Source of the DNA: Escherichia coli
GTDB taxonomy: Bacteria > Pseudomonadota > Gammaproteobacteria > Enterobacterales > Enterobacteriaceae
NCBI RefSeq assembly: GCF_016026235.1
Contig: NZ_CP065613.1
Reading direction: 5' to 3' (one strand)
Length of the DNA: 64,000 nt
The notes beneath the pieces are model-generated. The model was not told the DNA's origin, searched no databases, and was given only the letters and a program-made list of their open reading frames with translations. Both the position numbers and the translations under genes were made by a program. Shown in pieces: positions 7,105 to 54,912 of this stretch (positions are counted from its first letter, which is position 1; every line of letters starts with the position of its first letter).

Positions 7105-8619
<1,515 letters not shown>

Positions 8620-12728: not shown

Positions 12729-12805
12729 GAGATATCCTCCAGTTTCCTGCCTGGAGTATAGGCAACGTCCGGCAAAGAGAATACGTGTAATGAAGAGAAA
12801 ATAAC

Positions 12806-13804
12806 CTAAAGCGTGTTGCCGTGATAAATCTGATACCCGAGGTCAACAGTGTTGTGGTTGTGATCGTTATTTTTAATTTTGCTCAGCAACATTTGGGCGG
12901 CCATCCGACCAATATCAAAACGGGGAGTAATTACGCTGGCGAGGCTTGGGATCATTTGCCTGCCAATCTCCAGCCCATGAAAACCCGCAATGGAAATTTG
13001 TTCTGGCACGGCGAGGTTTCGCTCGCGGCACAGCAGAAGCGCACCCATCGCAATATCGTCATTGGTGCAAAATACACCGTCTAAATCCGGGTTTGCGCTA
13101 AGGGCATCACGCATTAACTGCATTCCTAAATGAATGGATGAGATGGCGCGTGGATTCATGCGTAATGGGGAAAGATTATGCAGCATCATCGCATCGCAAT
13201 ACCCCTGATAACGCTGTTCATCGCGGGTGTCATCTTTGGAACCGAGATACAGAATTTTGTGCCTGACTCGCTTCTCCAGCATGGTACACACCATGTCAAA
13301 AGCGGCCTGCCGATTATCAAAACCGACCTCCATATCCAGCCGTTCTCCCTGTACATCCATCAATTCCACGACCGGAATGGTGGCTGAACGCAGAAATTTC
13401 ACCGTCCTGATGGTGTGATATTTTTCCGAAAGTATAATCCCGTCAATGTTATAAGAGAGCAGGTTAATCACCGACTCTTCTTCGGAATCGCGATCGTAAT
13501 TGTAATTAGCAATAAGGGTCTGATAATTATGCTCAGAGGTGACGGATTCTATTCCCACGAGAATGTCAGCGAAGAGTTGATTTTGAAATGACGGAATCAA
13601 GATACCGAGGGTATAACTTTGTGCATTCAACAACATGCCGGGAGCGCGATTAGGGATATAATTGATCTCTTCCATAATTTTGGCGATGCGCTCGCCTGTT
13701 TCCTTTGCCACCTTTTTCGGCGAGCGGATATAACGACTCACGGTCATTTTTGTTACGCCAGCCAGCGTAGCGATATCCTGTAAAGAAATTCTGTGATTGC
13801 GCAT
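12806..13804 (-). CDS. idnR: LacI-family regulator of L-idonate catabolism IdnR
   Basis: N-terminal HTH ([18 protein letters not shown]) plus periplasmic-binding-like domain; start at MRNHRISL. Confidence 0.9.
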
Positions 13805-13870
13805 AACTTCTCCCAACGTCGGGGGAATCTTCAATCTTCCCCCGAAACTACATCACAATATTTTATTCTT

Positions 13871-15190
13871 TCAGTGCAATACGGCGTTAATGGCTAACAC
13901 GCCCAGCAAACCCATAATAGAAATAAGGGTTTCCATCACCGTCCAGGTACGCAACGTTTCACCAACCGTCAGATTAAAATACCCTTTAAATAGCCAGAAG
14001 CCAGGGTCGTTTACGTGTGACGCGATCACGCTGCCCGCACCGGTTGCCAGTACCATTAAAGCGGGATCGGCATGGGTAACGTTGATAATCGGCAACACCA
14101 CACCCGCGGTGGTAATGGCCGCGACGGTGGCAGAGCCCAGAGCGATACGCAACAGCGCCGCAACAGTCCAGCACATCAATAACGGCGAAAGCGTAGTTCC
14201 GGTCATTAAGTGTGAAATATAGTGCCCGACACCGCTATCTACTAATACCTGCTTAAACGCGCCGCCGCCAGCGATAATAAACACAATCATCGCGATAGCG
14301 CCTATAGAATCCCCAATGATATCCATGATTTGCTCGATGGTGCGTCCATTACGTCGGCCCAGTGTGAAAATCGCAATAACAATGGCAATAAACAGCGCAA
14401 CGGCAGGGTTACCGACAAATTCAAAGAAGAGGCGCACGGTGTTAGTTTTCGGTAACGTAATTTCACAAACGGCGGCGATAGCCATCAGGATGACCGGGAT
14501 CACGGCAGCGAAAATACTGTTCCAGAAGGAGGGCATCTCCTCTTCGCTAAACAGATGAGGATTAAATAAGCCTTCCGGTGGTGCTTTCTCAAAGCGAGTT
14601 AGCAGTTTAGAAAACAGCGGTCCTGCGACAATAACTGTCGGAATGGTAATGATAAATCCATACAGTAAAGTCGTTCCGAGATTAGCCTCAAAGATAGTCG
14701 CGATGGCAGTAGGCCCTGGATGTGGCGGCAGAAAACAGTGGGTTACAGAGAGCGCTGCTACCATTGGTACGCCAACATACAACAGGGGTAATCCTGATGA
14801 TGCTACGATGGTAAATACCAACGGCAACAGCAGGACAAAACCCACTTCAAAAAACATGGCGAGGCCCACAACCAGACCAGTGATCACTAGCGCCCATTGC
14901 ACGCGTTTTTTACCAAAAGTAGCAATCAGCGTAGTGGCGATACGTTGTGCCGCACCCGTATCAGAAATCAGCTTGCCTAACATGGCCCCGAAACCGAGGA
15001 TCATTGCCAGCCCACCGAGCGTGCTGCCGATACCATTTTGTATAGAGTGCAGGACGGCCTGTGCATCCATCCCTTCGGCAAATCCGACGACGGCAGCTAC
15101 CAGAACGAGGGCAATAAAGCCGTTAACTTTAAAGCCGATCATCAGGATAAGAAGCAGCGCGACGCCTGCCGCAATAATGATTAATGGCAT
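13871..15190 (-). CDS. idnT: GntP-family L-idonate/5-ketogluconate transporter IdnT
   Basis: 439-aa polytopic membrane protein in idn operon context. Confidence 0.92.
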   Translation of the reverse strand: MPLIIIAAGVALLLILMIGFKVNGFIALVLVAAVVGFAEGMDAQAVLHSIQNGIGSTLGGLAMILGFGAMLGKLISDTGAAQRIATTLIATFGKKRVQWALVITGLVVGLAMFFEVGFVLLLPLVFTIVASSGLPLLYVGVPMVAALSVTHCFLPPHPGPTAIATIFEANLGTTLLYGFIITIPTVIVAGPLFSKLLTRFEKAPPEGLFNPHLFSEEEMPSFWNSIFAAVIPVILMAIAAVCEITLPKTNTVRLFFEFVGNPAVALFIAIVIAIFTLGRRNGRTIEQIMDIIGDSIGAIAMIVFIIAGGGAFKQVLVDSGVGHYISHLMTGTTLSPLLMCWTVAALLRIALGSATVAAITTAGVVLPIINVTHADPALMVLATGAGSVIASHVNDPGFWLFKGYFNLTVGETLRTWTVMETLISIMGLLGVLAINAVLH

Positions 15191-15254
15191 AGTCTTTATC
15201 TCTTATTAGTGCCAGAAAAGCAGCGCTTTCGCGCTGCACGTAGGGTAGTAGGTG

Positions 15255-16019
15255 TTAAACAGCCACTAACATGCCGCCATCAACAAACAACAGGTGGCCG
15301 TTTACGAAATCAGAGGCTTTTGAAGAAAGGAACACCGCAGCACCAATCAGTTCCTGCGGATCTCCCCAGCGTGCGGCGGGGGTCCGTTTGCACAACCAGG
15401 CGGTGAAGGCTTCGTCCTCAACCAGTGCTTTAGTCATTTCTGTTTTGAAATAGCCCGGCGCAATACCGTTGACCTGAATATTGTGGCGCGCCAGCTCGAC
15501 GCACATGCCGCGGGTGAGCATTTTTACCGCCCCTTTCGATGCGGCATAAGGGGTGATGGTGTCACGTCCCAGTTCGCTTTGCATCGAGCAAATATTAATA
15601 ACTTTACCTGCCTTGCGTTCAACCATGTGACGAGTTACCGCTTGCGATACCAGGAACACGGCGGTCTGGTTTACTGCGATCACATCATTCCACTCTTGTT
15701 CAGGGAACTCAGTAAAAGGATGACGGCGCTGGATACCGGCGTTATTCACCAGCACATCAATGGGGCCGATGTCCTTTTCGATATGTTCAACGGCGGCATC
15801 AATTTCATGTTTATGAGTAACATTAAAAGGTGCGGCAACGGCCTGAATATCCTCCTGGTGGAGTTTTTCTACAGCAAGTTCTGCGCGTTCGGCAGTAATA
15901 TCATTAATAATTATTTGTGCGCCATATTTACCCAGGCCGGTTGCCAGTAAAAAGCCAATGCCCTGTGCTGAACCGGTAATCAAGATATTTTTTCCTGCCA
16001 GTGAAAATAGATCGTTCAT
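15255..16019 (-). CDS. idnO: 5-keto-D-gluconate 5-reductase (SDR family) IdnO
   Basis: 254-aa SDR with TGSAQGIG cofactor motif. Confidence 0.92.
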   Translation of the reverse strand: MNDLFSLAGKNILITGSAQGIGFLLATGLGKYGAQIIINDITAERAELAVEKLHQEDIQAVAAPFNVTHKHEIDAAVEHIEKDIGPIDVLVNNAGIQRRHPFTEFPEQEWNDVIAVNQTAVFLVSQAVTRHMVERKAGKVINICSMQSELGRDTITPYAASKGAVKMLTRGMCVELARHNIQVNGIAPGYFKTEMTKALVEDEAFTAWLCKRTPAARWGDPQELIGAAVFLSSKASDFVNGHLLFVDGGMLVAV

Positions 16020-16042
16020 TGTATTATTCCTTTATTTATCTC

Positions 16043-17074
16043 TTAGAAAACAAGCTGGACTTTTGCTGCCTGGGTTTTATCACCGGCGAAACGTAGCGCC
16101 TCTTCCAGGTCAGTGAAGGGATATTCAGCACTCAGTAAAGGCAGTGGATTGATAACGCCATTCGCCAGCCATGACACTGCGGTATTAAATTCGCTGGTAA
16201 AACGGAAAGAGCCTTTGAGTGAAATCTCCTTACCAATCAATGTCATCATTGGGAATTCTGCCATCGCGCCTCCCATACCTACCTGCACCATTACGCCGCG
16301 TGCACGAGTGACCTCCAGACAGGTATTCACTGATGAAGGATGACCGGACACTTCAAAGCTGACATCGAAATAGCCTTTTTCCGCTTTCCAGTGATCCATG
16401 TCGTCGTTTTGTGGGTTTACGAGCACATCCGCCCCCATCTCTTTACCCAGCGAAAGGGAACGGGGACTCACATCGGCACAGACAATTTCCGCGGCCCCCA
16501 GTGTTTTCACAGCACTGACAATCAGGCAGCCAATGGGCCCAACACCAGAAATAAATACTCGCTTGCCCTGTAACTCGCCGGCCTGATGTGCGGCATGAAT
16601 CGCGACGGCTAAAGGTTCGGCAAAAGCCATAACCTTTTCGTCAGCTTTGGCCGGATAAGGGACACATTGCGACGTTTCGACCATTTTATAACGGGTAAAA
16701 CCACCATCAACATGAGGGAAATACATGGCACTGCCAAAAAAACGCATATCTGTACACTGATTCTCGTTATGTTCAATGCAGTATTTGCAGTGACCGCACG
16801 GTTTAGACGGATTAATGGCTACCGTTTGCCCTTCATGTAATTCTGATGAGTCGCTATGAATAACTTTACCGATAACTTCATGACCTAACACCATCGGTGC
16901 CTTTATCATGAAATTACCTACTTTTCCTTCCTGATAATAATGTAAATCGGAACCGCAAATTCCACCTCGGGTTATTTGTACTAATGTTCCATTATTATTC
17001 CAATCTATCGTCTGCTCGGTAACGGCAACAGTTTTCTTGCCCGCAACAACGCAGGACTGTGTTTTCACTTGCAT
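16043..17074 (-). CDS. idnD: L-idonate 5-dehydrogenase (zinc MDR family) IdnD
   Basis: 343-aa zinc-ADH fold (GHE, CxxCxxC motifs). Confidence 0.92.
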   Translation of the reverse strand: MQVKTQSCVVAGKKTVAVTEQTIDWNNNGTLVQITRGGICGSDLHYYQEGKVGNFMIKAPMVLGHEVIGKVIHSDSSELHEGQTVAINPSKPCGHCKYCIEHNENQCTDMRFFGSAMYFPHVDGGFTRYKMVETSQCVPYPAKADEKVMAFAEPLAVAIHAAHQAGELQGKRVFISGVGPIGCLIVSAVKTLGAAEIVCADVSPRSLSLGKEMGADVLVNPQNDDMDHWKAEKGYFDVSFEVSGHPSSVNTCLEVTRARGVMVQVGMGGAMAEFPMMTLIGKEISLKGSFRFTSEFNTAVSWLANGVINPLPLLSAEYPFTDLEEALRFAGDKTQAAKVQLVF

Positions 17075-17290
17075 AAATTCCTCACTGGTCAGGTAGACAC
17101 CTCGGAAGCATTTAAGCGGTTTTAATTGTTATTATTTGTGATGAAGATCACGTCAGAAAATTGTTACATTACTATGTTACGCATAACGTGATGTGCCTTG
17201 TAATTCTTATCAGCAGAAATAAAAAAACGTGAAATTATTATGCCACCAGGCGTAGTATCGCAGCAGGTAAGATGATTCAGGAGATTTTAA

Positions 17291-17854
17291 ATGGCGGGTG
17301 AAAGCTTTATTTTGATGGGCGTTTCAGGGAGTGGTAAAACATTAATTGGTAGCAAGGTTGCCGCGTTATTATCTGCTAAATTTATTGATGGTGACGATCT
17401 TCATCCAGCCAAAAATATAGATAAAATGTCGCAGGGTATTCCATTATCTGATGAAGATCGACTTCCCTGGCTGGAACGCTTAAATGATGCTTCATACAGT
17501 CTTTATAAAAAGAATGAAACAGGATTTATTGTCTGTTCATCATTAAAAAAACAGTATCGTGATATTTTACGCAAGGGTAGCCCCCATGTTCATTTCCTCT
17601 GGTTAGATGGCGACTATGAAACTATTCTCGCGCGAATGCAGCGTCGGGCTGGGCATTTTATGCCGGTAGCGTTACTAAAAAGTCAGTTTGAGGCACTGGA
17701 GCGTCCACAAGAAGATGAACAGGATATTGTGCGCATTGATATCAACCATGATATTGCCAATGTCACTGAACAATGTCGGCAGGCTGTGCTGGCGATACGA
17801 CAAAACAGAATATGTGCGAAAGAGGGCAGCGCCTCAGATCAGCGCTGCGAATGA
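17291..17854 (+). CDS. idnK: gluconokinase IdnK
   Basis: 187-aa P-loop kinase (GVSGSGKT), divergent from idnD. Confidence 0.92.
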   Translation: MAGESFILMGVSGSGKTLIGSKVAALLSAKFIDGDDLHPAKNIDKMSQGIPLSDEDRLPWLERLNDASYSLYKKNETGFIVCSSLKKQYRDILRKGSPHVHFLWLDGDYETILARMQRRAGHFMPVALLKSQFEALERPQEDEQDIVRIDINHDIANVTEQCRQAVLAIRQNRICAKEGSASDQRCE

Positions 17855-17857
17855 TTT

Positions 17858-18877
17858 TCAAAAATCGGCTTTCAACACCACGCGGTAACGCGCCTTACCG
17901 TCGCGCACATGCTGGATGGCGTCGTTAATTTTCGACATCGGGAACAATTCGGTAGTCGGCGCAACCTTGCTGCGGGCGGCAAAACGCATCAGCTTACGCA
18001 ACTCATAAGGCGTGCCAGTAGCAGAGCCAGAGACACTGCGATCGCCCGCAATTAACGTAAAGGCCGGAACAGACAGCGGCGTGAGAACCGCACCGACCGT
18101 ATGGAAATTACCGCCATACGTCAGCGCCTCAAAATAAGGCTGCCAGTCGAGGCTGACGTTCACAGTATTGATAATGAGATCAAACTGCCCCGCCAGAGTT
18201 TTCAGTGCCTGCGGATCGCGGCTATTCACCACTTTATCGGCACCCATCGCCAGTACTTCCTGCTCTTTCGCCGGATTTGAACTAAAGGCTGTCACCTCGC
18301 ATCCCATTGCGTGCAGAAGTTTTATAGCGATATGCCCCAGCCCGCCAATACCAATTACCCCAACGCGGCTGGTAGCAGTGATATGGTGCATCAACAGTGG
18401 TTTAAAGACCGTGATACCGCCGCACAACAGCGGCCCGGCGGACTCGATATCAATATTTTCTGGCAGTGGAATCACCCATTGCCAGTCCGCACGCAACTTC
18501 TCGGCAAAGCCACCGCGATTCATAATCGTCGGCACCGCACCTTGCTCGCAGTTGATCTGATTACCGCTAATACAGGCGTCGCAGTGACCACAGCTACGCG
18601 CCGTCCAGCCAATCCCGACACGCTGACCGACCTGCAAACCTTTATCCTGCGCGGCGCTCCCGAGTGCCACCACGCGCCCAATCACCTCATGCCCGGCAAC
18701 CAGCGGATACTGTGAAAATCCCCATTCGTTATCGATCATCGACAGATCGGAATGGCAGATCCCGCAGTAATCCACCTGCACTTCAATATCTTGTGGCTTC
18801 AGCTCACCGGGATCGTACTCATAAACTTCCAGTTCTCCGCCCGCTTCTTTTGCGGCATAGCTTTTTATCATCGACAT
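17858..18877 (-). CDS. ahr: NADPH-dependent aldehyde reductase Ahr (YjgB)
   Basis: Zinc-ADH family; start at [11 protein letters not shown] giving 339 aa. Confidence 0.9.
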
Positions 18878-19072: not shown

Positions 19073-19157
19073 GCCGAAGTGGCGAAATCGGTAGACGCAG
19101 TTGATTCAAAATCAACCGTAGAAATACGTGCCGGTTCGAGTCCGGCCTTCGGCACCA
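19073..19157 (+). tRNA. leuX: tRNA-Leu (anticodon CAA)
   Basis: 85-nt sequence GCCGAAGTGGCGAAATCGGTAGACGCAGTTGATTCAAAATCAACC...GGCACCA with CAA anticodon loop, long variable arm and 3' CCA. Confidence 0.9.
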
Positions 19158-19320
19158 TTAGTACTTCCAAGAACATCCGAGAAAGTCCAATTATTCCTTA
19201 AAAATCAATGCTTGCAGCGACTTTTACGTCCTGTGTCTTCCGAGGTTGTCCGTTGAAATCCGGATGTTATTGGGGGCATAATTGGGGGCATCTTAACTTC
19301 GATTAGAAATGTGCCCCCAA

Positions 19321-20577
19321 ATGAAGCTTAACGCCAGACAGGTCGAGACCGCAAAGCCAAAAGACAAAACCTACAAAATGGCCGATGGTGGCGGTTTGTA
19401 TCTTGAGGTTTCGGTCAAAGGTTCCAAATACTGGCGCATGAAATACAGACGTCCCTCTGACAAAAAAGAGGATCGCCTCGCTTTTGGTGTTTGGCCTACT
19501 GTGACGCTTGCTCAGGCAAGAGCAAAACGCGATGAAGCTAAAAAGCTTTTAGTACAGGGCATAGACCCAAAAGTCGTACAAAAAGAAGCTCAGGCCGAGA
19601 ATTCGGGGGCATATACTTTTGAAACTATCGCCCGAGAATGGCATGCCAGTAACAAGCGTTGGAGTGAAGACCATCGATCGCGTGTTCTTCGCTATCTTGA
19701 GCTTTATATCTTTCCTCATATTGGTTCGTCCGACATTCGGCAGCTTAAAACCAGCCACCTGTTAACCCCGATTAAAAAAGTTGATGCCAGTGGCAAACAC
19801 GATGTCGCTCAGCGCCTGCAACAGCGCGTCACGGCCATTATGCGTTATGCCGTACAGAACGATTACATCGACTCAAATCCAGCCAGCGATATGGCCGGTG
19901 CGCTATCGACAACCAAAGCGCGACATTACCCTGCTTTACCTTCTAGCCGGTTCCCTGAGTTTCTTGCACGTCTTGCTGCCTATCGCGGCCGCAAAATGAC
20001 GCGTATTGCAGTCGAGTTATCTCTACTTACCTTCGTTCGCTCTAGTGAGATGCGATTTGCCCGATGGGATGAGTTTGATTTTGATAACGCCTGCTGGCGG
20101 ATACCGGCGCGGCGTGAAGAAATCGAAGGTGTGCGTTACTCCTATCGTGGGATGAAGATGAAAGAGGAACATATTGTTCCATTGAGCACTCAGGCTCTAG
20201 CTTTGCTGGATGAGTTGAAGAAGCTTAGTGGAGATAATCCTAGACTGTTTCCCGGTGATCATGATCCCAATAAAGTTATGAGCGAAAACACAGTTAATAA
20301 TGCGCTCAGGACTATGGGCTACGACACACAAACGGAAGTATGTGGGCATGGTTTTAGAACAATGGCGCGTGGTGCTTTGGGGGAGTCGGGGCTTTGGAGT
20401 GATGATGCGATAGAACGTCAGTTAAGCCACTCGGAGCGCAATAATGTTCGTGCAGCTTATATCCATACTTCAGAGCATTTGGACGAACGTCGATTGATGA
20501 TGCAATGGTGGGCGGATTTCCTATCAGCAAATCGTGAGACTTTCGTAACACCATTTGATTTTGCAAAAAAATATTAA
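19321..20577 (+). CDS. intB: P4-type tyrosine integrase
   Basis: Begins MKLNARQVETAKPKDKTYK; C-terminal catalytic region with HGFR...R motifs; lies immediately 3' of a tRNA gene. Confidence 0.9.
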   Translation: MKLNARQVETAKPKDKTYKMADGGGLYLEVSVKGSKYWRMKYRRPSDKKEDRLAFGVWPTVTLAQARAKRDEAKKLLVQGIDPKVVQKEAQAENSGAYTFETIAREWHASNKRWSEDHRSRVLRYLELYIFPHIGSSDIRQLKTSHLLTPIKKVDASGKHDVAQRLQQRVTAIMRYAVQNDYIDSNPASDMAGALSTTKARHYPALPSSRFPEFLARLAAYRGRKMTRIAVELSLLTFVRSSEMRFARWDEFDFDNACWRIPARREEIEGVRYSYRGMKMKEEHIVPLSTQALALLDELKKLSGDNPRLFPGDHDPNKVMSENTVNNALRTMGYDTQTEVCGHGFRTMARGALGESGLWSDDAIERQLSHSERNNVRAAYIHTSEHLDERRLMMQWWADFLSANRETFVTPFDFAKKY

Positions 20578-20668
20578 TAATTGATTTTTTCTGTATGTTT
20601 TTGTTAGGTATTAATCAATTTCAGTTTTACTTTCATCTATAACAGACTTATACACGGAATGATGCGTT

Positions 20669-23409
20669 ATGATTACAAAAGATATAGTTGTTAGTGCATA
20701 TAATTGTCTTAAGTCATATGCTTACTACGAAAACTTAAATTTTTTCCTAAAGGAAGAAATCGCTCAATTTGAAGATTCTCTCTATGACGAAAAAATAGAA
20801 AAAGTGGTTGATTTTTTTGAAAATAATAATGACATTAACTTTAATGAGTGGCTAAATAAAATTGATGTTGAATTATTACCAAAAAAAATTGATAGCCATT
20901 TGGATATTGAGCAAACGAGCGGAGCTCTTTTTTTAAGTAATAATAAGACATCAGATGAATACAAAGTAGGTGCTGTAAATTATTTGATCGTTGCTCCTAT
21001 TGAAATATATTTAATAGAAACACTCTGGTCTATCTTTGTTGGTTCAATGCTAGATGACAAGTTTTCTGATTCGGTTTATGGAAATAGAATATCAAAAGTA
21101 ATAAAAAATATTCTAAGAATAGTTTCGATGCGCCAAAAAACTCCTCAAAAAATATCTTTGAAAGATACATTGATAATTATAATAAATGGCGAGATGGTGG
21201 TATCGATAAAGCGATAGAAGTTATAGAAAAAGAGCGAAATGATGTTGCAATTCTTTCTCTGGATCTTAAGGGTTTTTATTATAATATAGATATAGATTTT
21301 GATGCCATTGATAGAATTATTGACGAAGAACAATTAGAAGAAATTAAAGCTCTTTCTATGTTGTTGAATAGTAAATTGAGGTTGATGCATCAAAAATACA
21401 GAGAGAAAATATCTCCATATATTGGTGTGACACATTCAACTCCTTCATCAAAAGGCATTCCAATTGGATTTACTTCTTCTGCCATATTATCTAATTGGTA
21501 TTTAATGGGTTTTGATAAAGATATTAAATCAAAAATTAACCCATCGTACTACGGTCGCTATGTGGATGATATTCTTTTAGTTTTTTCATCCCCGGACATT
21601 AAAAAAGAAGATAAAGGTGAAGAAGTAATAAAATTCATAGAGCGAACCCTTAATGGATTCATTAAACAGGCAGCGAATGATGAGAAAGGCTTTACGTTGA
21701 CCGAGAGTTATCATGAATTACCAATTCAAAAGGATAAATTGATTTTTCATTATTTCAATAAAGATCATAGTTTGGCTGGTTTACAAGTCTTCAAACAAGA
21801 AATTGAGAACAGAAGCAGTGCATTTCGTTTTTTACCGGAAGAACATATATCTAGCGATCTCGATAAATTTGCTTATGATATATTACTTGATGGTTCGGCA
21901 AATAAATTTAGAAGTATTGTAGGTTTGGCAGAGAATGAAACTGAATTATCAAAATATATATCATCACATATCTTAGCTCATAGGCTTTGCAATCTTCCAT
22001 CGAATGAGAATACCTTAAAGCAAATAACGCTGTTTTTTAAAGGTGAAAATTCTCTAAGGTTCAGTCGGTTATGGGAGAAAGTTCTATCGTATACATTAAT
22101 TACAAGAAAATATGGATTTTCAATCGCCTTTTACAAACAAATTAAAGAATCAATTAATAAAATTAAGTGGAAGGAAGGTGATAGTGTTATATCTCCAAAA
22201 CTTAAAAATGGAATGCAGAAATACATTGATATTTCTCTTTGTTTGAATTTGGCTTTGTTAGATTTAAATGTCATTTTAGGTGATAAAGAGCCACAAAATA
22301 GAGCTTTGGAAGGTTTGAAATCTTTAATTAAACAGTCCGATGGAATGTCTGTTCTAATTGAAAGATTTAGAAGCAGTAATTTGATTCGTCATAATCTAGT
22401 GTCTTGGCCTTTAGCTAACTATACTAAATATAAAGGAGATCTTACTGAGGAGAATTTATACAGTAAGATGCATGGTATTCCACTTGATAATGATAAATTA
22501 AATAAAACCCCTAGATATATTCATGCTGATGAAAAGCAGCTTTTCGATTTGATTGATGCTCTTCATACAAGAAAACTACATAAGTTTACGCATGAAAATA
22601 AGCATCACTTAAAAAATTGCTCTGTTACTAAGATAAAAGATAATAAAGCTCTTGAAATAAAGGTAGGAATTGATGATAGAAGTGGTAATGACACAATAAA
22701 AGTTGCGTTGGCAAATATGAGAGTTGAACGTCGTAATATTGAAAGTGCTTGCAGAAAAGATCAGTCTCCAAATTTAAGTTATGAACGACAAAGAAACCTT
22801 TATCGTATTCTCAACTCGGCAACTGAAGAAAATGTGCAGATATTACTACTCCCTGAGTTATCAATTCCTGTGTCGTGGTTACCTTTTATGGCAGCACATT
22901 CAAGGAGAAAACAAATATCTTTGATTTTCGGATTAGAGCATTGGGTTATTAACGAACGCGCATATAATATTTTGGTTGAAATGCTGCCTTATACTTCAAA
23001 CTTTAAACACAAATCCAGTATGTTAGTTTTTCGAGTGAAAAATCATTACGCACCTAGTGAGATTACGATGCTGAATTCTTTAAGGTTAAAAATATCCTCT
23101 CCTAAACCTAGTAAACAACGGTATCATTTGATTAAGTGGAAAAACGTATCATTTTCTACATACAACTGTTTTGAACTGGCTAATATCGAGCATAGAGCAT
23201 TATTTCGTTCGCAGTTGGATATTTTATTTGCTTGCGTATGGAATCAAGATATAAATTATTATCAACATATCACTGAGTCAGCGACACGGGATTTACATTG
23301 TTATGTGGCTCAATCGAATACTTCGCATTATGGCGGTTCTTGTGTTCTACAACCGACCAGTAGCACTATTTCAAATAAGATATATGTAAAAGGTGGGGAA
23401 AACCACTGA
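20669..23409 (+). pseudogene. reverse transcriptase-nitrilase fusion (DRT1/UG1-like), with a -1 frame change near 21130-21155 and 3' end severed by IS insertion
   Basis: Frame switch between ORF 20669..21217 and the frame carrying RT motif A (AILSLDLKGFYYNID) and motif C (YGRYVDDILLVF); C-terminal nitrilase-superfamily triad motifs LLLPELSIP, FRVKNHYAPSE, STYNCFELAN; stop codon TGA supplied by the IS end. Confidence 0.7.
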
Positions 23410-24700
23410 GGGATCCCCAGAAAATTTAGTAAACCATTATCATATTGGTATACCGTTGCTGTAGAACTTTCAGCCCTGCGTCAAGTGACAGTGTGTTTAG
23501 TATGAGTGGAGAATGTCGAATCACATTCTCCGCCAGTTTTAATAACGAGATGACTCGCCTGTGCTTCACTGTATTTGCCTGATATTTATGATGTATCCCT
23601 TTGTTTTCCAGGCTGAAACCGCTTAACCACATAATGATACTGGCTAATGTTGCGATCAGACTCAATACCGTGACCCGCCCGGATGAATGACTGGCACCAA
23701 ACCGTAGTCCAAATCCCCAGCGAGGATTTTTTTCATCCCTGAAATTTTGCTCAATTTGCATTCTACGGCTGTATAATTTCATTACCTGTTTTGGCGAGAA
23801 CTCAGTACTGTTTGTGAAAATAAACCATGGTGATTTCCCGGCAGTACGAGCTTTAGCCGTCACCGATGGTCTGGTTGCTCTTTCCTTCGAGCGTTTAAAT
23901 CTACGACCTTTAGGCTTACTTTTATAAAGATAAAAATGCCCTTCATGTTGTGCATTTTTATCTCGACCCAGCAGGCCTTCACCTAAATAAATTGCTGTCG
24001 TTGATGCTTTTGTGCCTGAGTCCGACACCTTTTCCCAGCCATTACCAACATTGTAATAATGATTGCCCAGTACCCGGCAAATATAGGTCCAGCCACGGGA
24101 GCGGAGCTGTTGGAACCATCGCCCCTGAAAACCGGCATCTGTAATAACAATGACATCAGTCCCGGGGGAAAAGCACTCAGCAAGCGATTCCAGAAAACGC
24201 TCATGTACATCTGCATTCGCTGTCTGTGATGATGGAACGACACAACTCATCAACGGTAAAGAACGCCCGTCACATGCCAGGCTTGCCCGCAAAAGCTGAA
24301 AACGAGAGGCATGATAAGCACTCCAGTCAATGAGTATCACAACACGAGACATTCCCCGCGTAATCTTTTGGGTAATTCGCTGAAAAATGGTGGAAACCTC
24401 ATTTTGCAAATGTCGATTCCCCAACAGTCGATCCACCCGCTTTATTTTGTTTTTAACTGATGCCGTACCGGTTAAATGACGCCCGATACTGGTAAGTGTG
24501 AGGGAAGCGCCATTTATTACAGCATTAGTTGCGTCAATCAGTGATTTTTGACGGTAAAGATGCAAAGGGGCCAGTATGTTGTTAAGGAAATTTTGGCATA
24601 ATGAACGTGCAGGCATAGTGGTGATCTCCTTGAAATTGTTAGCACAATCAATTAGATCACATCTCACTATGCCTGTCTTGTTTTCTGGGGATTCCTCAGG
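23406..24700 (-). mobile_element. IS4-family insertion sequence (IS10-like), copy 2, flanked by 9-bp direct repeat GGAAAACCA
   Basis: Same element as copy 1 at a constant offset; duplicated 9-mer at 23397..23405 and 24701..24709. Confidence 0.85.
23426..24616 (-). CDS. IS4-family (IS10-like) DDE transposase
   Basis: Identical protein to copy 1; the ORF-track N-terminal extension crosses the IS boundary and is not part of the gene. Confidence 0.8.
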   Translation of the reverse strand: MPARSLCQNFLNNILAPLHLYRQKSLIDATNAVINGASLTLTSIGRHLTGTASVKNKIKRVDRLLGNRHLQNEVSTIFQRITQKITRGMSRVVILIDWSAYHASRFQLLRASLACDGRSLPLMSCVVPSSQTANADVHERFLESLAECFSPGTDVIVITDAGFQGRWFQQLRSRGWTYICRVLGNHYYNVGNGWEKVSDSGTKASTTAIYLGEGLLGRDKNAQHEGHFYLYKSKPKGRRFKRSKERATRPSVTAKARTAGKSPWFIFTNSTEFSPKQVMKLYSRRMQIEQNFRDEKNPRWGFGLRFGASHSSGRVTVLSLIATLASIIMWLSGFSLENKGIHHKYQANTVKHRRVISLLKLAENVIRHSPLILNTLSLDAGLKVLQQRYTNMIMVY

Positions 24701-24709
24701 GGAAAACCA

Positions 24710-24848
24710 TTGCATCCTAACTACTACTTTAAATATATATGCATTGAGAGAGGCTCAATATCGTTCATTCAGAATTAACTCCGATACTATTAAACACAAT
24801 CCTCCAGGGTTTGACTATAATGCTCTATTAGAGCGAGGTGAGAAATGA
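24710..24848 (+). pseudogene. displaced 3' end (last 45 codons) of the RT-nitrilase gene
   Basis: After removing the IS and one duplicated 9-mer the RT frame continues ...GGENH-CILTTTLNIYALREAQYRSF...ERGEK to TGA at 24846..24848. Confidence 0.65.
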
Positions 24849-25534
24849 GTAGCTTTTGGGAAGGTATTTTGTCATCAAGCATTTCATTTGCAATTATTGG
24901 ATTTGTTTGTAAGGCTTTTTTACAACATATTGATAAAAGAGAGTTAGAATCATTTAAAAATAAGTTGAAATATGAAAGTGAACAGAGAATTAAAGAGGAT
25001 GAACGTGCTTATAATTTTAAAAAAGCAAGAGATCTTGAAATCGGACGTTGGGGGTTAACATTACTTAGTGCTGCAAATGGTTTTTTAGGAAGGCTATGTT
25101 ATATTAAAGATCACAATGACCTATCGTCGGATCAATATTATATTGATAGTACAAGATTCTATCTATGCCAATATTTTTGCTGGGTACATCAATTCAGGAA
25201 AAATAGAGATTCATCTGTATTTTCACCAACTAATGATGAAATGTTAATAACTGAATTAATCAAAAATATTTCTATAGCCCTACGAGAGAACGATATTGGT
25301 TTTCCTTGTATTAGATCTCTTGAACAAAAGTATATAGGTGAAAGCCTTAGCATTGGTGCTGAATGTATGTCCTATAAAGATTTTATCGATTCTAAAGTAT
25401 TAGAAAACTATGCACCTCTAAATGATTTTGTTGAAGCAATTCTACAAAATAATAATAAAGATTATATCGATAAACTCGTTATCCCATTCCAAGATCTCAA
25501 GACCAGATTTGATGCGGCATTACAAAATAAATGA
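24845..25534 (+). CDS. hypothetical protein with N-terminal transmembrane helix, translationally coupled to the RT-nitrilase gene
   Basis: 229-aa ORF; ATGA start/stop overlap with the RT tail; hydrophobic segment ILSSSISFAIIGFVCKAFL; AT-rich like the RT gene. Confidence 0.6.
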   Translation: MSSFWEGILSSSISFAIIGFVCKAFLQHIDKRELESFKNKLKYESEQRIKEDERAYNFKKARDLEIGRWGLTLLSAANGFLGRLCYIKDHNDLSSDQYYIDSTRFYLCQYFCWVHQFRKNRDSSVFSPTNDEMLITELIKNISIALRENDIGFPCIRSLEQKYIGESLSIGAECMSYKDFIDSKVLENYAPLNDFVEAILQNNNKDYIDKLVIPFQDLKTRFDAALQNK

Positions 25535-25735: not shown

Positions 25736-26279
25736 TTACACAGACTGACGTGATGCCAGTTGCGCACTTTTACGCGAAAAAATCATGTTCTGCGCAGGGG
25801 TGAATTTTTCACGGCTGTCATCCACCGAAGCCGCGTCAGGCCTGAATCCGATGGTCGTTAAAATGTCGCTATCCTGTGCGGAATAATTAATTTTTTCACC
25901 CTTCGCAAGCCAGGACAGGAGGGCTTCACGCAGGGCATCTGTGGCACGCTGTATGGCACAGTTTCGGGCAATGGCCGTCAGCTCACTGTAGCCCATCAGC
26001 TCCGGTGCCAGTGCCGCCGCCAGTGCTGTGCCGTGCTGCTGCATAAAATCATTCAGCCGGTCGCGGATGCTGATGTGCTGAACGGCTTCATGCGAACGAA
26101 TATAACGACCGGCGGCCTGATTCACCTGCCATTTTCTGACTTCGATAATATTGCGTAATTCGTCCAGGCGACTGACGTTTCTGCCTTCTCCTGACAGAAG
26201 CCGCAGATATTCCTGTTCGGCCGCAGCCAGCTCATTTTTGCGTTGCAGCCATGCTGCTTTGTTATTCTGACAGGTGTCA
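25736..26279 (-). pseudogene. psu: P4 Psu-like (polarity suppression) protein, 5' end truncated by IS1
   Basis: 180-aa alpha-helical product recognised as P4 Psu-like; the first codons of ORF 25736..26293 are read from IS1 terminal sequence, so the native start is missing. Confidence 0.55.
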
Positions 26280-26334
26280 GGTAATGCTGCCAACTTACTG
26301 ATTTAGTGTATGATGGTGATTTTAAGGTGCTTGC

Positions 26335-26610
26335 GTGGCTTCCATTTCCATCAGATGTGCTTCCTGCTCCGCTACTGAAGGCGTGGTGCGTAACGGCAAA
26401 AGCACTGCCGGACATCAGCGCTATCTCTGCTCTCATTGCCGTAAAACATGGCAACTGCAGTTCACTTACACCGCCTCTCAGCCCGGTACGCACCAGAAAA
26501 TCATTGATATGGCCATGAATGGCGTCGGATGTCGCGCCAGTGCACGCATTATGGGCGTTGGCCTCAACACGGTTTTACGTCACTTAAAAAACTCAGGCCG
26601 CAGTCGGTAA
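26335..26610 (+). CDS. insA: IS1 InsA
   Basis: 91-aa product with zinc-finger CxxC...CxxC and HTH, matching InsA. Confidence 0.9.
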
Positions 26611-27032
26611 CCTCGCGCATACAACCGGGCAGTGATGTGATTGTCTGCGCTGAAATGGACGAACAGTGGGGCTACGTCGGTGCTAAATCACGTCAGCGCT
26701 GGCTGTTTTACGCGTATGACAGGATACGGAGGACGGTTGTGGCGCACGTCTTCGGTGAACGCACTCTGGCCACACTGGAGCGTCTTCTGAGCCTGCTGTC
26801 GGCCTTTGAGGTCGTGGTATAGATGACGGATGGCTGGCCGCTGTATGAATCACGCCTGAAGGGAAAGCTGCACGTTATCAGCAAGCGTTACACTCAGCGC
26901 ATTGAGCGACATAATCTGAATCTGAGACAACATCTGGCAAGGCTGGGACGGAAGTCACTGTCGTTCTCAAAATCGGTGGAGCTGCATGACAAGGTCATCG
27001 GGCATTATCTGAACATAAAACACTATCAGTAA
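26529..27032 (+). pseudogene. insB: IS1 InsB with internal TAG stop at 26820..26822
   Basis: InsB frame is split into ORFs 26529..26822 and 26823..27032 by one stop where IS1 normally has a Trp codon (VVIWMTDGW). Confidence 0.7.
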
Positions 27033-27345
27033 GTTGGAGTCATTACCCGGCGTGCGTGCCAGGTACAGTCGTTCGGCTGGAAAAATACGGGGGCTGAGCC
27101 TGCTGGCAACACTGAGCACAATAGTGCGGTGGCTTATTGGCTATCACGCTTAAAATAAAGGGGTAGATCTGAGACAGCAGGCCAACAGAATTAAAACGCG
27201 GCGGGTAATATCGTATCTGACATTAGCGAAGAATATCTTGCGATACTCCTCGCTAATTTTAAAACGAATGGTGCTGATCACCGTTCTTAATCACTTCGCC
27301 AGAACCGACCATAATATGGTGTTGGTTTATTAGCGCTGATTCATG

Positions 27346-37546: not shown

Positions 37547-38138
37547 AAAATGAGAATAACCAGTTCCCTGAAGGCGACGTAGCCCGGTACAAGAGTAACC
37601 CACGTTAGCGCTTGGCGACGGCGGAACAAAGCTGATTCGCGACGTAAGAAAGTGGCAGGCTCATATGACGGACCTCTGTAATGCGGTATCCAACCCGCGA
37701 ATATCAGCGTGATTCACCGTCGGATTTACTGCTACGTCGCCCTCAGGGAATTAAACCTAAAAAGAAAATCGTCAAAATTAGAGATTCCGGTTTGACACGG
37801 AAAGTCATATCAGCGCTGACGGGTGACCCTAAGCCCTGATAATCATAGCTTAAGGTGAGGATTTATGAGGGATTAATTAGGAAAAGTAATAATTAATTTG
37901 TTGTCAGTCGGCGATGTTTGTTAGGCCAATATTTCAAAAATAATCCAGCTTGTCGTCAATAATTGCGATAAAGAGATAAATTAAAGTTAAATAATTAAAT
38001 CATTAAAAAATTACGCCATTAAAATGCGAGGCGTCTTCCGGATTAGAATCGATAAAACAGAATGGGTTAAAGAGAGCGATATAATAGCGGCGGGTGCTTG
38101 AGGCTGTCTGTCTCAGGCATTAGCTGAACGGCAGATAG

Positions 38139-38193
38139 AGAAAAGCCCCGAGTGATATTTTACCATCAACCCGAGGCCCCCTATATGCTGAAC
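38139..38193 (-). ncRNA. sokC: putative Sok-type antisense RNA of the hok/mok locus (position inferred, not seen)
   Basis: Inferred from the canonical hok/sok layout, in which the antitoxin RNA is antisense to the mok start region; no promoter or terminator verified. Confidence 0.3.
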
Positions 38194-38394
38194 ACATGTA
38201 GAGTGCCTCTTACTGACCGTAAGGTCAAGGAGAAGAGAGCAATGAAGCAGCATAAGGCGATGATTGTCGCCCTGATCGTCATCTGTATCACCGCCGTAGT
38301 GGCGGCGCTGGTAACGAGAAAAGACCTCTGTGAGGTTCACATCCGAACTGGCCAGACGGAGGTTGCTGTTTTCACGGCTTACGAATCCGAGTAA
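38185..38394 (+). CDS. mokC: Mok-type translational coupling frame overlapping hok
   Basis: 69-codon frame starting MLNTCRVPL that ends at the same stop as hok. Confidence 0.6.
   Translation: MLNTCRVPLTDRKVKEKRAMKQHKAMIVALIVICITAVVAALVTRKDLCEVHIRTGQTEVAVFTAYESE
38242..38394 (+). CDS. hokC: Hok/Gef-family type I toxin (50 aa)
   Basis: MKQHKAMIVALIVICITAVVAALVTRKDLCEVHIRTGQTEVAVFTAYESE, a single-TM Hok family peptide. Confidence 0.85.
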   Translation: MKQHKAMIVALIVICITAVVAALVTRKDLCEVHIRTGQTEVAVFTAYESE

Positions 38395-38417
38395 GAGCAA
38401 CGGCGGGGAGTGATCCC

Positions 38418-39712
38418 CTGAGGGATCCCCAGAAAATTTAGTAAACCATTATCATATTGGTATACCGTTGCTGTAGAACTTTCAGCCCTGCGTCAAGTGA
38501 CAGTGTGTTTAGTATGAGTGGAGAATGTCGAATCACATTCTCCGCCAGTTTTAATAACGAGATGACTCGCCTGTGCTTCACTGTATTTGCCTGATATTTA
38601 TGATGTATCCCTTTGTTTTCCAGGCTGAAACCGCTTAACCACATAATGATACTGGCTAATGTTGCGATCAGACTCAATACCGTGACCCGCCCGGATGAAT
38701 GACTGGCACCAAACCGTAGTCCAAATCCCCAGCGAGGATTTTTTTCATCCCTGAAATTTTGCTCAATTTGCATTCTACGGCTGTATAATTTCATTACCTG
38801 TTTTGGCGAGAACTCAGTACTGTTTGTGAAAATAAACCATGGTGATTTCCCGGCAGTACGAGCTTTAGCCGTCACCGATGGTCTGGTTGCTCTTTCCTTC
38901 GAGCGTTTAAATCTACGACCTTTAGGCTTACTTTTATAAAGATAAAAATGCCCTTCATGTTGTGCATTTTTATCTCGACCCAGCAGGCCTTCACCTAAAT
39001 AAATTGCTGTCGTTGATGCTTTTGTGCCTGAGTCCGACACCTTTTCCCAGCCATTACCAACATTGTAATAATGATTGCCCAGTACCCGGCAAATATAGGT
39101 CCAGCCACGGGAGCGGAGCTGTTGGAACCATCGCCCCTGAAAACCGGCATCTGTAATAACAATGACATCAGTCCCGGGGGAAAAGCACTCAGCAAGCGAT
39201 TCCAGAAAACGCTCATGTACATCTGCATTCGCTGTCTGTGATGATGGAACGACACAACTCATCAACGGTAAAGAACGCCCGTCACATGCCAGGCTTGCCC
39301 GCAAAAGCTGAAAACGAGAGGCATGATAAGCACTCCAGTCAATGAGTATCACAACACGAGACATTCCCCGCGTAATCTTTTGGGTAATTCGCTGAAAAAT
39401 GGTGGAAACCTCATTTTGCAAATGTCGATTCCCCAACAGTCGATCCACCCGCTTTATTTTGTTTTTAACTGATGCCGTACCGGTTAAATGACGCCCGATA
39501 CTGGTAAGTGTGAGGGAAGCGCCATTTATTACAGCATTAGTTGCGTCAATCAGTGATTTTTGACGGTAAAGATGCAAAGGGGCCAGTATATTGTTAAGGA
39601 AATTTTGGCATAATGAACGTGCAGGCATAGTGGTGATCTCCTTGAAATTGTTAGCACAATCAATTAGATCACATCTCACTATGCCTGTCTTGTTTTCTGG
39701 GGATTCCTCAGG
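38418..39712 (-). mobile_element. IS4-family insertion sequence (IS10-like), copy 3, flanked by 9-bp direct repeat AGTGATCCC
   Basis: Same termini as copies 1 and 2; duplicated 9-mer at 38409..38417 and 39713..39721; target lies in GGGGAGTGATCCCC. Confidence 0.85.
38438..39628 (-). CDS. IS4-family (IS10-like) DDE transposase
   Basis: Identical protein to copies 1 and 2. Confidence 0.8.
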   Translation of the reverse strand: MPARSLCQNFLNNILAPLHLYRQKSLIDATNAVINGASLTLTSIGRHLTGTASVKNKIKRVDRLLGNRHLQNEVSTIFQRITQKITRGMSRVVILIDWSAYHASRFQLLRASLACDGRSLPLMSCVVPSSQTANADVHERFLESLAECFSPGTDVIVITDAGFQGRWFQQLRSRGWTYICRVLGNHYYNVGNGWEKVSDSGTKASTTAIYLGEGLLGRDKNAQHEGHFYLYKSKPKGRRFKRSKERATRPSVTAKARTAGKSPWFIFTNSTEFSPKQVMKLYSRRMQIEQNFRDEKNPRWGFGLRFGASHSSGRVTVLSLIATLASIIMWLSGFSLENKGIHHKYQANTVKHRRVISLLKLAENVIRHSPLILNTLSLDAGLKVLQQRYTNMIMVY

Positions 39713-54763: not shown

Positions 54764-54791
54764 GGTTGTTACCTCGTTACCTTTGGTCGAA

Positions 54792-54828
54792 AAAAAAGCC
54801 CGCACTGTCAGGTGCGGGCTTTTTTCTG
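54792..54828 (-). terminator. thr operon attenuator terminator
   Basis: Minus-strand hairpin AAAAGCCCGCACCTGACAGTGCGGGCTTTTTTTT between thrL and thrA. Confidence 0.75.
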
Positions 54829-54843
54829 TGTTTCCTGTACGCG

Positions 54844-54912
<69 letters not shown>

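What the first reader, a model, noticed from the sequence alone, without database searches (positions are those of the whole stretch)
21088..21217. Frame change inside the RT gene at A6 runs: programmed -1 slippage, sequencing error, or inactivating mutation
Seen: RT motifs 1-2 are in the frame of ORF 20669..21217, while motif A onward is in the -1 frame that is open from ~21088. The overlap contains two A6 runs (CCAAAAAACTCC and TCAAAAAATATC). A single -1 shift there would give a continuous RT. Inference: either a 1-nt indel pseudogenised the gene, or slippage at the homopolymer yields full-length product at low frequency.
Basis: partly seen in the sequence, partly recalled or inferred. Interest (0 to 1): 0.5.

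Follow-up and report, generated by a model that had tools for sequence, protein, structure and literature searches.

The report
Frameshifted, IS-disrupted antiphage RT-nitrilase pseudogene
The frame change is real but ordinary: a known anti-phage reverse-transcriptase gene on an E. coli satellite-prophage remnant lost one A from a run of seven, was later also hit by an insertion sequence, and is a dead gene rather than a case of programmed frameshifting.

Summary
The frame change is real. Intact E. coli orthologues (958 aa, 2877 nt) differ from the window by one base: their A7 run is A6 here, at 21103-21108.

The gene is the UG5-large RT-nitrilase. With its downstream transmembrane partner (24845-25534) it forms a published anti-phage system in the int-psu hotspot of P4-like satellites integrated at the tRNA-Leu(CAA) gene.

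The deletion is not a sequencing error. The exact 182-aa ORF1 product occurs on 32 or more public contigs, on four SNP haplotypes.

It is not programmed frameshifting either:
- Close and distant homologues are single polypeptides across the site.
- No downstream RNA structure is present.
- The -1 frame has no start codon before catalytic motif A.
- An ISEc60 copy (23406-24698, 11-bp target duplication) also cuts off the last 45 codons.

A sister assembly has the frameshift without the IS, so the frameshift came first. All A/T runs of 7 or more in this 31% GC gene show recurrent ±1 indels in other strains. Nine of 18 complete-genome loci fetched are disrupted.

Verdict: pseudogene of a known system, low interest.

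The parts
19073..19157 (+). tRNA-Leu (anticodon CAA), the attachment site of the P4-like satellite
   Evidence: ARAGORN, Rfam tRNA. The same tRNA-int-RT order is annotated in complete genomes.
19309..20577 (+). P4-type tyrosine integrase of the satellite
   Evidence: ORF. The orthologous CDS is annotated 'tyrosine-type recombinase/integrase'. Pfam Arm-DNA-bind_3, Phage_int_M and Phage_integrase on the same gene.
20669..21217 (+). ORF1 of the broken RT gene. Codons 1-146 are native UG5 RT N-terminus; the following 36 codons are out of frame and end at a stop at 21215-21217.
   Evidence: The exact 182-aa product is found on 32 or more public contigs.
21103..21108 (+). The lesion: an A6 run that is A7 in intact orthologues (1-nt deletion, nt 435-441 of the intact gene). 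In the ORF1 frame it reads A_AAA_AAT.
   Evidence: Alignment of the window with L001 and 26 other loci.
21135..21152 (+). They are unchanged relative to intact genes and are not the site of the frameshift.
   Evidence: No public allele carries a deletion in either run.
21088..23405 (+). The -1 frame, carrying the rest of the RT (motif A 21253-21279, YVDD 21559-21570) and the nitrilase domain up to residue 913. The first ATG/GTG/TTG in this frame is at 21358, downstream of motif A.
   Evidence: PADLOC RT_UG5-nitrilase and RTasNitrilase. Pfam RVT_1.
23406..24698 (-). ISEc60 (IS4 family, 1293 bp) inserted in the nitrilase-coding 3' end of the RT gene. The 11-bp target duplication GGGGAAAACCA lies at 23395-23405 and 24699-24709, and the terminal inverted repeats start at 23406 and end at 24698.
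   Evidence: NCBIfam IS4-family transposase. 100% identical copies are annotated ISEc60.
24699..24848 (+). Displaced 3' remnant of the RT-nitrilase gene: the last 45 codons plus the stop, which overlaps the start of the TM gene (ATGA).
   Evidence: BLAST of the intact gene against the window: nt 2728-2877 map to 24699-24848 at 100%.
24845..25534 (+). Intact 229-aa RT-associated transmembrane protein (RTasTM), the partner or effector of the UG5-large system.
   Evidence: PADLOC RTasTM E=5e-164 over its full length. Identical to WP_000094232.1 of L001.
25736..26293 (-). psu (polarity suppression protein). It marks the other edge of the P4-like defence hotspot. The satellite is cut off by an IS1 immediately beyond it.
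   Evidence: Annotation of orthologous loci. Pfam Psu.

Best explanation
The gene is a decayed copy of the UG5-large reverse transcriptase-nitrilase, one half of the 'RT-nitrilase + TM' anti-phage system. That system sits in the int-psu hotspot of P4-like satellites integrated at the tRNA-Leu(CAA) gene of E. coli.

A slipped-strand deletion shortened an A7 run to A6 at 21103-21108. This moved everything from residue 147 onward, including the catalytic motifs A and YVDD and the nitrilase domain, into the -1 frame. Translation from the native start now ends after 182 residues. The downstream frame has no start codon ahead of motif A, so no active polymerase can be made by normal decoding.

Later in this lineage an ISEc60 element inserted 139 nt before the stop and removed the last 45 residues. 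The rest of the satellite had also been lost beyond psu. The locus is a pseudogene in a satellite remnant.

Shown: the position and nature of both lesions, the family assignment, the spread of the allele, and the order of events. Inferred: loss of function, and replication slippage as the mutational mechanism.
For: Lesions:
- There is a single 1-nt difference from intact 2877-nt orthologues, inside the A7 run.
- ISEc60 sits at 23406-24698 with an 11-bp target duplication and truncates the ORF at residue 913.
- The first start codon in the -1 frame is ATG 21358, whereas motif A is at 21253-21279.

Native organisation:
- The intact protein matches PADLOC RT_UG5-nitrilase end to end (1-958 of 958, E=0), and the downstream gene matches RTasTM.
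- Distant homologues at 31-47% identity are single proteins of about 950-1050 aa, aligned in one stretch across residue 146.

The allele is real and the frameshift came first:
- The allele is on 32 or more contigs and is annotated 'frameshifted' in complete genomes JNE170426 and FDAARGOS_943.
- L020 has the window's haplotype and is 100% identical in both flanks. It carries the frameshift but no IS.
- The same haplotype took two other, independent IS1 hits (L003, L026).
- An intact version of this haplotype (M499I) is absent from about 15 billion proteins.

Decay of this gene is general:
- Nine of 18 complete-genome loci fetched are disrupted by other frameshifts, W174*, IS1 or IS3.
- ±1 indels occur at every A/T run of 7 or more, on several haplotypes.
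- The satellite is truncated by IS1 just after psu.
Against: - The deletion creates a formally slippery heptamer, A_AAA_AAT, in the ORF1 frame. A small fraction of ribosomes (or RNA polymerase adding an A) could therefore restore the frame. That was not measured here.
- The same deletion occurs on four haplotypes, three of which also exist intact. This could be read as a reversible switch rather than plain decay.
- Loss of function is inferred from the sequence, not assayed.
- The TM partner gene is still intact.
Confidence: 0.9

Rival explanations
1. Phase variation. The A/T homopolymers in the first 450 nt of the gene act as contingency tracts, and A7 to A6 is the OFF state of a reversible switch for a costly abortive-infection system. 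In this window the switch would be locked OFF by the IS.
For: - The A7 deletion sits on four SNP haplotypes. Haplotypes A, B and C exist both intact and deleted.
- A7-to-A8, A8±1 and T7±1 alleles also exist, and A8-1 and T7+1 each sit on several haplotypes.
- All four runs of 7 or more lie in the first 441 nt. Runs of 6 or more are more numerous than in synonymous-codon shuffles (13 against 7.4, P about 0.001).
Against: - Tracts of 7-8 A/T are short for phase-variable loci (own knowledge).
- The excess of runs of 7 or more is not significant (4 against 2.3, P=0.13), and their 5' clustering is largely dictated by the protein sequence (shuffle mean 1.97 of 2.31 in the first 450 nt).
- Irreversible lesions (IS1, IS3, ISEc60, W174*) are about as common as indels.
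- The window's haplotype is never seen intact.
- Recombination between satellites could also place one deletion on several haplotypes.
Confidence: 0.06
2. Programmed or adventitious -1 recoding. Ribosomal slippage on A_AAA_AAT, or transcriptional slippage on the A run, yields enough full-length RT for function.
For: - The heptamer A_AAA_AAT is in the ORF1 frame at 21103-21109.
- The shift site lies in a variable-length linker of the family, so a one-residue change there should be tolerated.
- Translational 'correction' of indels is a recognised phenomenon (PMC5009743, abstract).
Against: - Intact orthologues need no shift.
- The downstream 91 nt folds worse than shuffles (-8.3 against -11.1 kcal/mol, z=+1.13), and the 201-nt context has z=+0.37.
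- I saw no Shine-Dalgarno-like element at the usual distance upstream.
- In E. coli, heptamers without stimulators give only 2-10 times a background of about 0.055% (PMC4066793).
- The frame-corrected product would still be cut at residue 913 by ISEc60.
Confidence: 0.02
3. Sequencing or assembly artefact: a homopolymer miscall in a long-read assembly.
For: - The lesion is a 1-nt homopolymer length change, the typical long-read error.
- The window is 100% identical to a contig of GCA_900449985.1. STM-prefixed accessions such as the one listed for this protein come, as far as I know, from the NCTC long-read project (own knowledge).
Against: - The exact ORF1 product is on 32 or more contigs from independent NCBI, ENA and Logan assemblies.
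- These include two other complete genomes from different groups and drafts sharing the window's haplotype (L020, L026).
Confidence: 0.02

Closest known systems
UG5-large 'RT-nitrilase + TM' anti-phage system of P4-like satellite hotspots (Rousset et al. 2022, PMC9122126; classified in Mestre et al. 2022, PMC9226505)
   Same: The same two genes in the same order (RT fused to a C-N hydrolase, then a 229-aa TM protein overlapping by ATGA), in the same place (between int and psu of a tRNA-Leu-integrated P4-like element). The PADLOC models match over their full length.
   Different: The RT gene here is frameshifted at codon 147 and truncated by ISEc60 at codon 913, and the satellite is a remnant. 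I did not compare it directly with the experimentally tested E. coli E101 allele.
DRT type 1 (UG1 RT-nitrilase; Gao et al. 2020, as cited in PMC9226505) and DRT11 (UG5-large of Sinorhizobium meliloti, bioRxiv 10.64898/2025.12.16.694600)
   Same: [quoted passage not shown] The nitrilase domain is required for defence in UG1 and in DRT11.
   Different: The RT belongs to a different clade from UG1: Drt1a models match the RT core only, E=3e-28 against E=0 for UG5. DRT11 lacks the TM partner, whereas this locus has it.
Programmed -1 frameshift sites of E. coli (dnaX; IS1, IS3 and IS911 transposases)
   Same: An A-rich X_XXY_YYZ heptamer lies at the junction of two overlapping frames.
   Different: There is no conserved two-frame organisation, no stimulatory structure and no Shine-Dalgarno-like element. 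The heptamer exists only because of the deletion.
Homopolymer frameshift pseudogenes annotated 'frameshifted' by NCBI's pipeline (PGAP)
   Same: This is exactly that class. The same allele is already flagged this way in NZ_AP027217.1 and NZ_CP065615.1.
   Different: Nothing material.

Membership tests
UG5-large RT-nitrilase + TM defence system | Reverse transcriptase of the UG5 clade | tested here: met
   For the frame-restored/intact orthologue, PADLOC RT_UG5-nitrilase PDLC02995 matches 1-958 of 958 at E=0 and PDLC03780 at E=2e-252. Pfam RVT_1 covers residues 171-328. Motif A and YVDD are present in the window's -1 frame.
UG5-large RT-nitrilase + TM defence system | C-N hydrolase (nitrilase) domain fused to the C-terminus of the RT | tested here: inconclusive
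   Present in the intact orthologue (PADLOC RTasNitrilase, residues 674-948, E=3e-34). In the window the domain is cut at residue 913 by ISEc60, and the last 45 codons are displaced to 24699-24848.
UG5-large RT-nitrilase + TM defence system | Downstream transmembrane partner protein | tested here: met
   The product of 24845-25534 matches PADLOC RTasTM at E=5e-164 over its full length and is identical to WP_000094232.1.
UG5-large RT-nitrilase + TM defence system | A single uninterrupted RT-nitrilase reading frame, i.e. a functional gene | tested here: not met
   A 1-nt deletion at 21103-21108 plus an IS insertion at 23406-24698. By descent this is a member of the family, but a pseudogene.
UG5-large RT-nitrilase + TM defence system | Confers phage resistance | not testable with these tools
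   Shown for an E. coli P4-hotspot allele at room temperature (PMC9122126). Not assayable here. Expected to be lost in this copy.
Programmed -1 ribosomal frameshift | Slippery X_XXY_YYZ heptamer in the upstream frame | tested here: met
   A_AAA_AAT at 21103-21109 in the ORF1 frame. It is created by the deletion itself.
Programmed -1 ribosomal frameshift | Two-frame organisation conserved among orthologues | tested here: not met
   Intact single-ORF alleles are on 201 + 130 + 12 contigs. Distant homologues are contiguous across the site.
Programmed -1 ribosomal frameshift | Stimulatory element (downstream stem-loop or pseudoknot, or upstream Shine-Dalgarno-like sequence) | tested here: not met
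   The downstream 91 nt has an MFE of -8.3 kcal/mol against a shuffle mean of -11.1 (z=+1.13). I saw no Shine-Dalgarno-like sequence in the 6-17 nt upstream.
Phase-variable (contingency) locus | ON and OFF tract lengths among near-identical alleles | tested here: met
   A7, A6 and A8 forms occur on shared SNP haplotypes. Recombination is not excluded.
Phase-variable (contingency) locus | Hypermutable repeat tract, longer or more frequent than composition predicts | tested here: inconclusive
   Runs of 7 or more: 4 against 2.3 expected (P=0.13). Runs of 6 or more: 13 against 7.4 (P about 0.001). Both compare with synonymous-codon shuffles. Tracts are only 7-8 nt long.
Phase-variable (contingency) locus | High-frequency reversible switching within a clone | not testable with these tools
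   This needs fluctuation assays or deep read data.

The most novel reading that the evidence does not exclude
The cluster of A7, A8 and T7 tracts in the first 450 nt of this E. coli UG5-large RT-nitrilase gene works as a set of contingency switches. Slippage would turn a costly abortive-infection system OFF and, by reversion, ON again across the satellite population. The window's allele would be one OFF state, later fixed by IS insertion.
Probability: 0.07. Interest if true: 0.5.

Novelty: already known. Interest (0 to 1): 0.12.

Why it matters
For annotation, this locus should be called a pseudogene of the UG5-large RT-nitrilase + TM defence system. It should not be called two genes or a recoding event, and the strain should not be counted as carrying an active copy.

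One wider point is modest. In public E. coli genomes this AT-rich, horizontally carried defence gene is very often broken. About half of the complete-genome loci I fetched are disrupted, mostly by ±1 slips in its few long A/T runs and by IS hits. That fits the idea that such systems are costly or only intermittently useful. Surveys that count defence systems by homology will overestimate functional copies unless frame integrity is checked.

Tried and rejected
- **RNA structure near the slip site.** I folded the 91 nt downstream and the 201-nt context to look for a frameshift stimulator. Neither folds better than shuffles.
Rejected by alignment and by exact look-ups, which found no allele deleted in either run.
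- **An independent start for ORF2.** There is no ATG, GTG or TTG in the -1 frame before 21358. Gene callers elsewhere picked various downstream or non-canonical starts, and none retains motifs 1-2.
- **Is this A7 run a uniquely hot site?** No. A6@122+1 (36 contigs), T7@144+1 (22) and A8@213-1 (12) are comparably frequent, and the latter two were checked and also sit on several haplotypes.
- **Are the homopolymers enriched by design?** The result is weak and mixed.
- **Rfam scan of the window.** It found no RNA family in or next to the RT locus other than the tRNA.
- **NCBIfam.** It has no specific model for this RT or for the TM protein, only sub-threshold Drt3a, Drt2 and retron hits.

Full report
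**Observation**

An ATG-initiated ORF runs from 20669 to 21217 (182 aa). The -1 frame is open from 21088 to 23409. The overlap is 21088-21217. Both quoted A6 runs are present, at 21135-21140 and 21147-21152.

**Where the lesion is**

A megablast of 20580-23430 against 5,426 complete E. coli genomes found the locus in 32 chromosomes at 99% identity or more. A 33rd record matched only the 36 nt of ISEc60 at the end of the query. In strains such as Res13-Lact-EA06-22 the gene is one 2877-nt CDS, WP_000628823.1 (958 aa), annotated 'RNA-directed DNA polymerase'.

Base-by-base comparison shows one indel between the window and this intact gene. The intact A7 run at nt 435-441 is A6 in the window, at 21103-21108. 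The site is different from the one proposed.

**A second lesion**

The window's similarity to intact genes stops at 23405 and resumes at 24699, with 11 bp (GGGGAAAACCA) present on both sides.

- The intervening 1293 bp has terminal inverted repeats.
- It encodes an IS4-family transposase.
- It is 100% identical to elements annotated ISEc60.

The insertion truncates the RT-nitrilase at residue 913 ('...GGENH*'). It displaces the last 45 codons to 24699-24848, where the stop overlaps the start of the next gene.

**What the gene is**

- The intact protein matches PADLOC's RT_UG5-nitrilase model end to end (1-958 of 958, E=0).
- Its C-terminal part matches the RT-associated nitrilase model (residues 674-948).
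- The next gene (24845-25534, 229 aa) matches RTasTM at E=5e-164.
- Pfam sees RVT_1 at residues 171-328.

The locus lies between a P4-type integrase next to tRNA-Leu(CAA) (19073-19157) and psu. This is the defence hotspot of P4-like satellites.

[quoted passage not shown] Mestre et al. classify it as UG5-large and note that the TM protein is required (PMC9226505). A related UG5-large system, DRT11, needs both the RT and the nitrilase domain (bioRxiv 10.64898/2025.12.16.694600).

**Not a native split**

A full HMMER scan of 1.84 billion cluster representatives gave 992 hits at E of 1e-30 or lower. Most full-length relatives among the best hits, at 31-47% identity, are proteins of about 950-1050 aa aligned in a single stretch across residue 146 (for example 7-952 against 8-986). 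An alignment of 14 of them is contiguous through the site. The site falls in a variable-length linker between the conserved 'YGNRL' and 'LFxxYxxQYxxWRD' blocks.

**Not a sequencing error**

- The exact 182-aa ORF1 product is on 32 contigs from NCBI, ENA and Logan assemblies. The contig index lists it in 50 blocks of the collection.
- It occurs in two other complete genomes, JNE170426 and FDAARGOS_943, where PGAP already flags the gene 'frameshifted'.
- The window is 100% identical over 9.5 kb to UGFA01000002.1 of GCA_900449985.1.

**Not programmed frameshifting**

The deletion does create a formal slippery heptamer, A_AAA_AAT, in the ORF1 frame. Three things argue against function:

- The 91 nt downstream folds worse than shuffled sequence (-8.3 against -11.1 kcal/mol, z=+1.13). 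The wider 201 nt gives z=+0.37.
- I saw no Shine-Dalgarno-like element at the usual distance upstream.
- In E. coli, heptamers without stimulators give only 2-10 times a background of about 0.055% (PMC4066793).

The -1 frame has no ATG, GTG or TTG before 21358, whereas catalytic motif A is at 21253-21279. ORF2 on its own therefore cannot make an active polymerase. Any frame-corrected product would still end at the IS.

**Order of events and population picture**

The SNPs define four haplotypes of this gene. The deletion occurs on all four:

| Haplotype | Defining SNPs | Protein change | Loci with the deletion |
|---|---|---|---|
| A | reference | none | L022, L023 |
| B | 996T, 1017A, 2291A, 2649G | R764H | L025, L027 |
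| C | 996T, 1900G | T634A | L002, L019, L021 |
| D | 873C, 996T, 1497T, 2649G | M499I | window, L003, L020, L024, L026 |

Intact proteins of haplotypes A, B and C are on 201, 130 and 12 contigs. An intact haplotype D protein is not in the collection.

Within haplotype D, L020 has the frameshift and no IS, and its flanks are 100% identical to the window's. The window has ISEc60, L003 has IS1 near nt 300, and L026 ends in IS1 at nt 2678. The frameshift therefore came first, and the dead gene then collected three independent IS insertions.

The satellite itself is cut off by an IS1 immediately after psu.

**Is this run special?**

No. The gene is 31% GC and has four A/T runs of 7 or more: T7 at nt 144, A8 at nt 213, T7 at nt 260 and A7 at nt 435. 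I predicted the N-terminal peptide for ±1 indels at each run and looked each one up by exact sequence. Each count is the number of contigs carrying that exact peptide.

| Allele | Contigs |
|---|---|
| A6@122 +1 | 36 |
| A7@435 -1 (the window's allele) | 32 |
| T7@144 +1 | 22 |
| A8@213 -1 | 12 |
| A7@435 +1 | 4 |
| T6@914 -1 and A6@934 -1 | 3 and 1 (which count belongs to which allele was not resolved) |
| T7@144 -1 | 2 |
| T7@260 -1 | 2 |
| T7@260 +1 | 2 |
| A6@468 +1 | 2 |
| A8@213 +1 | 1 |
| A6@468 -1; A6@480 ±1 | 0 |

The T7+1 and A8-1 alleles also sit on several haplotypes. Among the 18 complete-genome loci I fetched, nine are intact and nine are disrupted, by frameshifts, W174*, IS1 or IS3.

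Synonymous-codon shuffling shows that the 5' clustering of long runs is mostly dictated by the protein sequence. The excess of runs of 7 or more is not significant (4 against 2.3, P=0.13). Runs of 6 or more are modestly enriched (13 against 7.4, P about 0.001).

Sharma et al. note that AAAAAAA and UUUUUUU are avoided in E. coli genes, possibly because of transcriptional slippage or high indel rates. This foreign, AT-rich gene carries four such tracts and pays for it.

**Conclusion**

The finding is a genuine frameshift. It is a slipped-strand 1-nt deletion in a known anti-phage gene, followed by an IS insertion, in a satellite remnant. In short, it is a pseudogene.

The only mildly interesting residue is the recurrent, multi-haplotype inactivation of this defence gene at its homopolymers. 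I read that as mutational hot spots combined with weak or negative selection on the gene. A true phase-variation mechanism is not excluded, but I give it about 7%.

Noticed in passing
window 23406-24698; also 2340-3634 and 38415-39712: Three near-identical copies of ISEc60 (IS4 family) lie in 64 kb. The close relative FDAARGOS_943 has at least 38 matching places. This lineage appears to be undergoing an ISEc60 expansion.
   Followed up: partly
window ~36290 (junction); thr leader at 54789-54908 (-): The leuX island and sugar-PTS region (up to about 36.3 kb) directly abuts the thrABC-dnaK region. In FDAARGOS_943 the two segments lie about 105 kb apart. This suggests a large, probably IS-mediated, deletion or rearrangement in the window's strain.
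   Followed up: partly
window 26272-27047: An IS1-family element lies immediately after psu, and the remaining P4-like genes (ogr/delta, the primase gene and others, present in L001) are absent. The satellite is a remnant consisting of int, RT, TM and psu.
   Followed up: partly
related loci L005, L012 and protein P0005: An independent nonsense allele of the same RT gene (521G>A, W174*) is on 40 contigs, including several mouse-derived strains (M9-M19 series). This is another common way the gene is lost.
   Followed up: yes
related loci L028, L029: Some alleles carry two homopolymer indels (150insT + 220insA; 150insT + 938delA). Either decay continued after the first frameshift, or some short-read assemblies contain errors.
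   Followed up: no
window 12767-17858: The idn (L-idonate) gene block between yjgR and ahr is present in the window but absent from L001 and L002, where yjgR and ahr are adjacent. This is a presence/absence polymorphism just upstream of leuX.
   Followed up: no
window 38092-38244 (+), 7864-8058 (+): Rfam hits above gathering score to sok antitoxin RNA (a hok/sok-type locus next to an ISEc60 copy) and to Ysr276. Neither is related to the finding.
   Followed up: no
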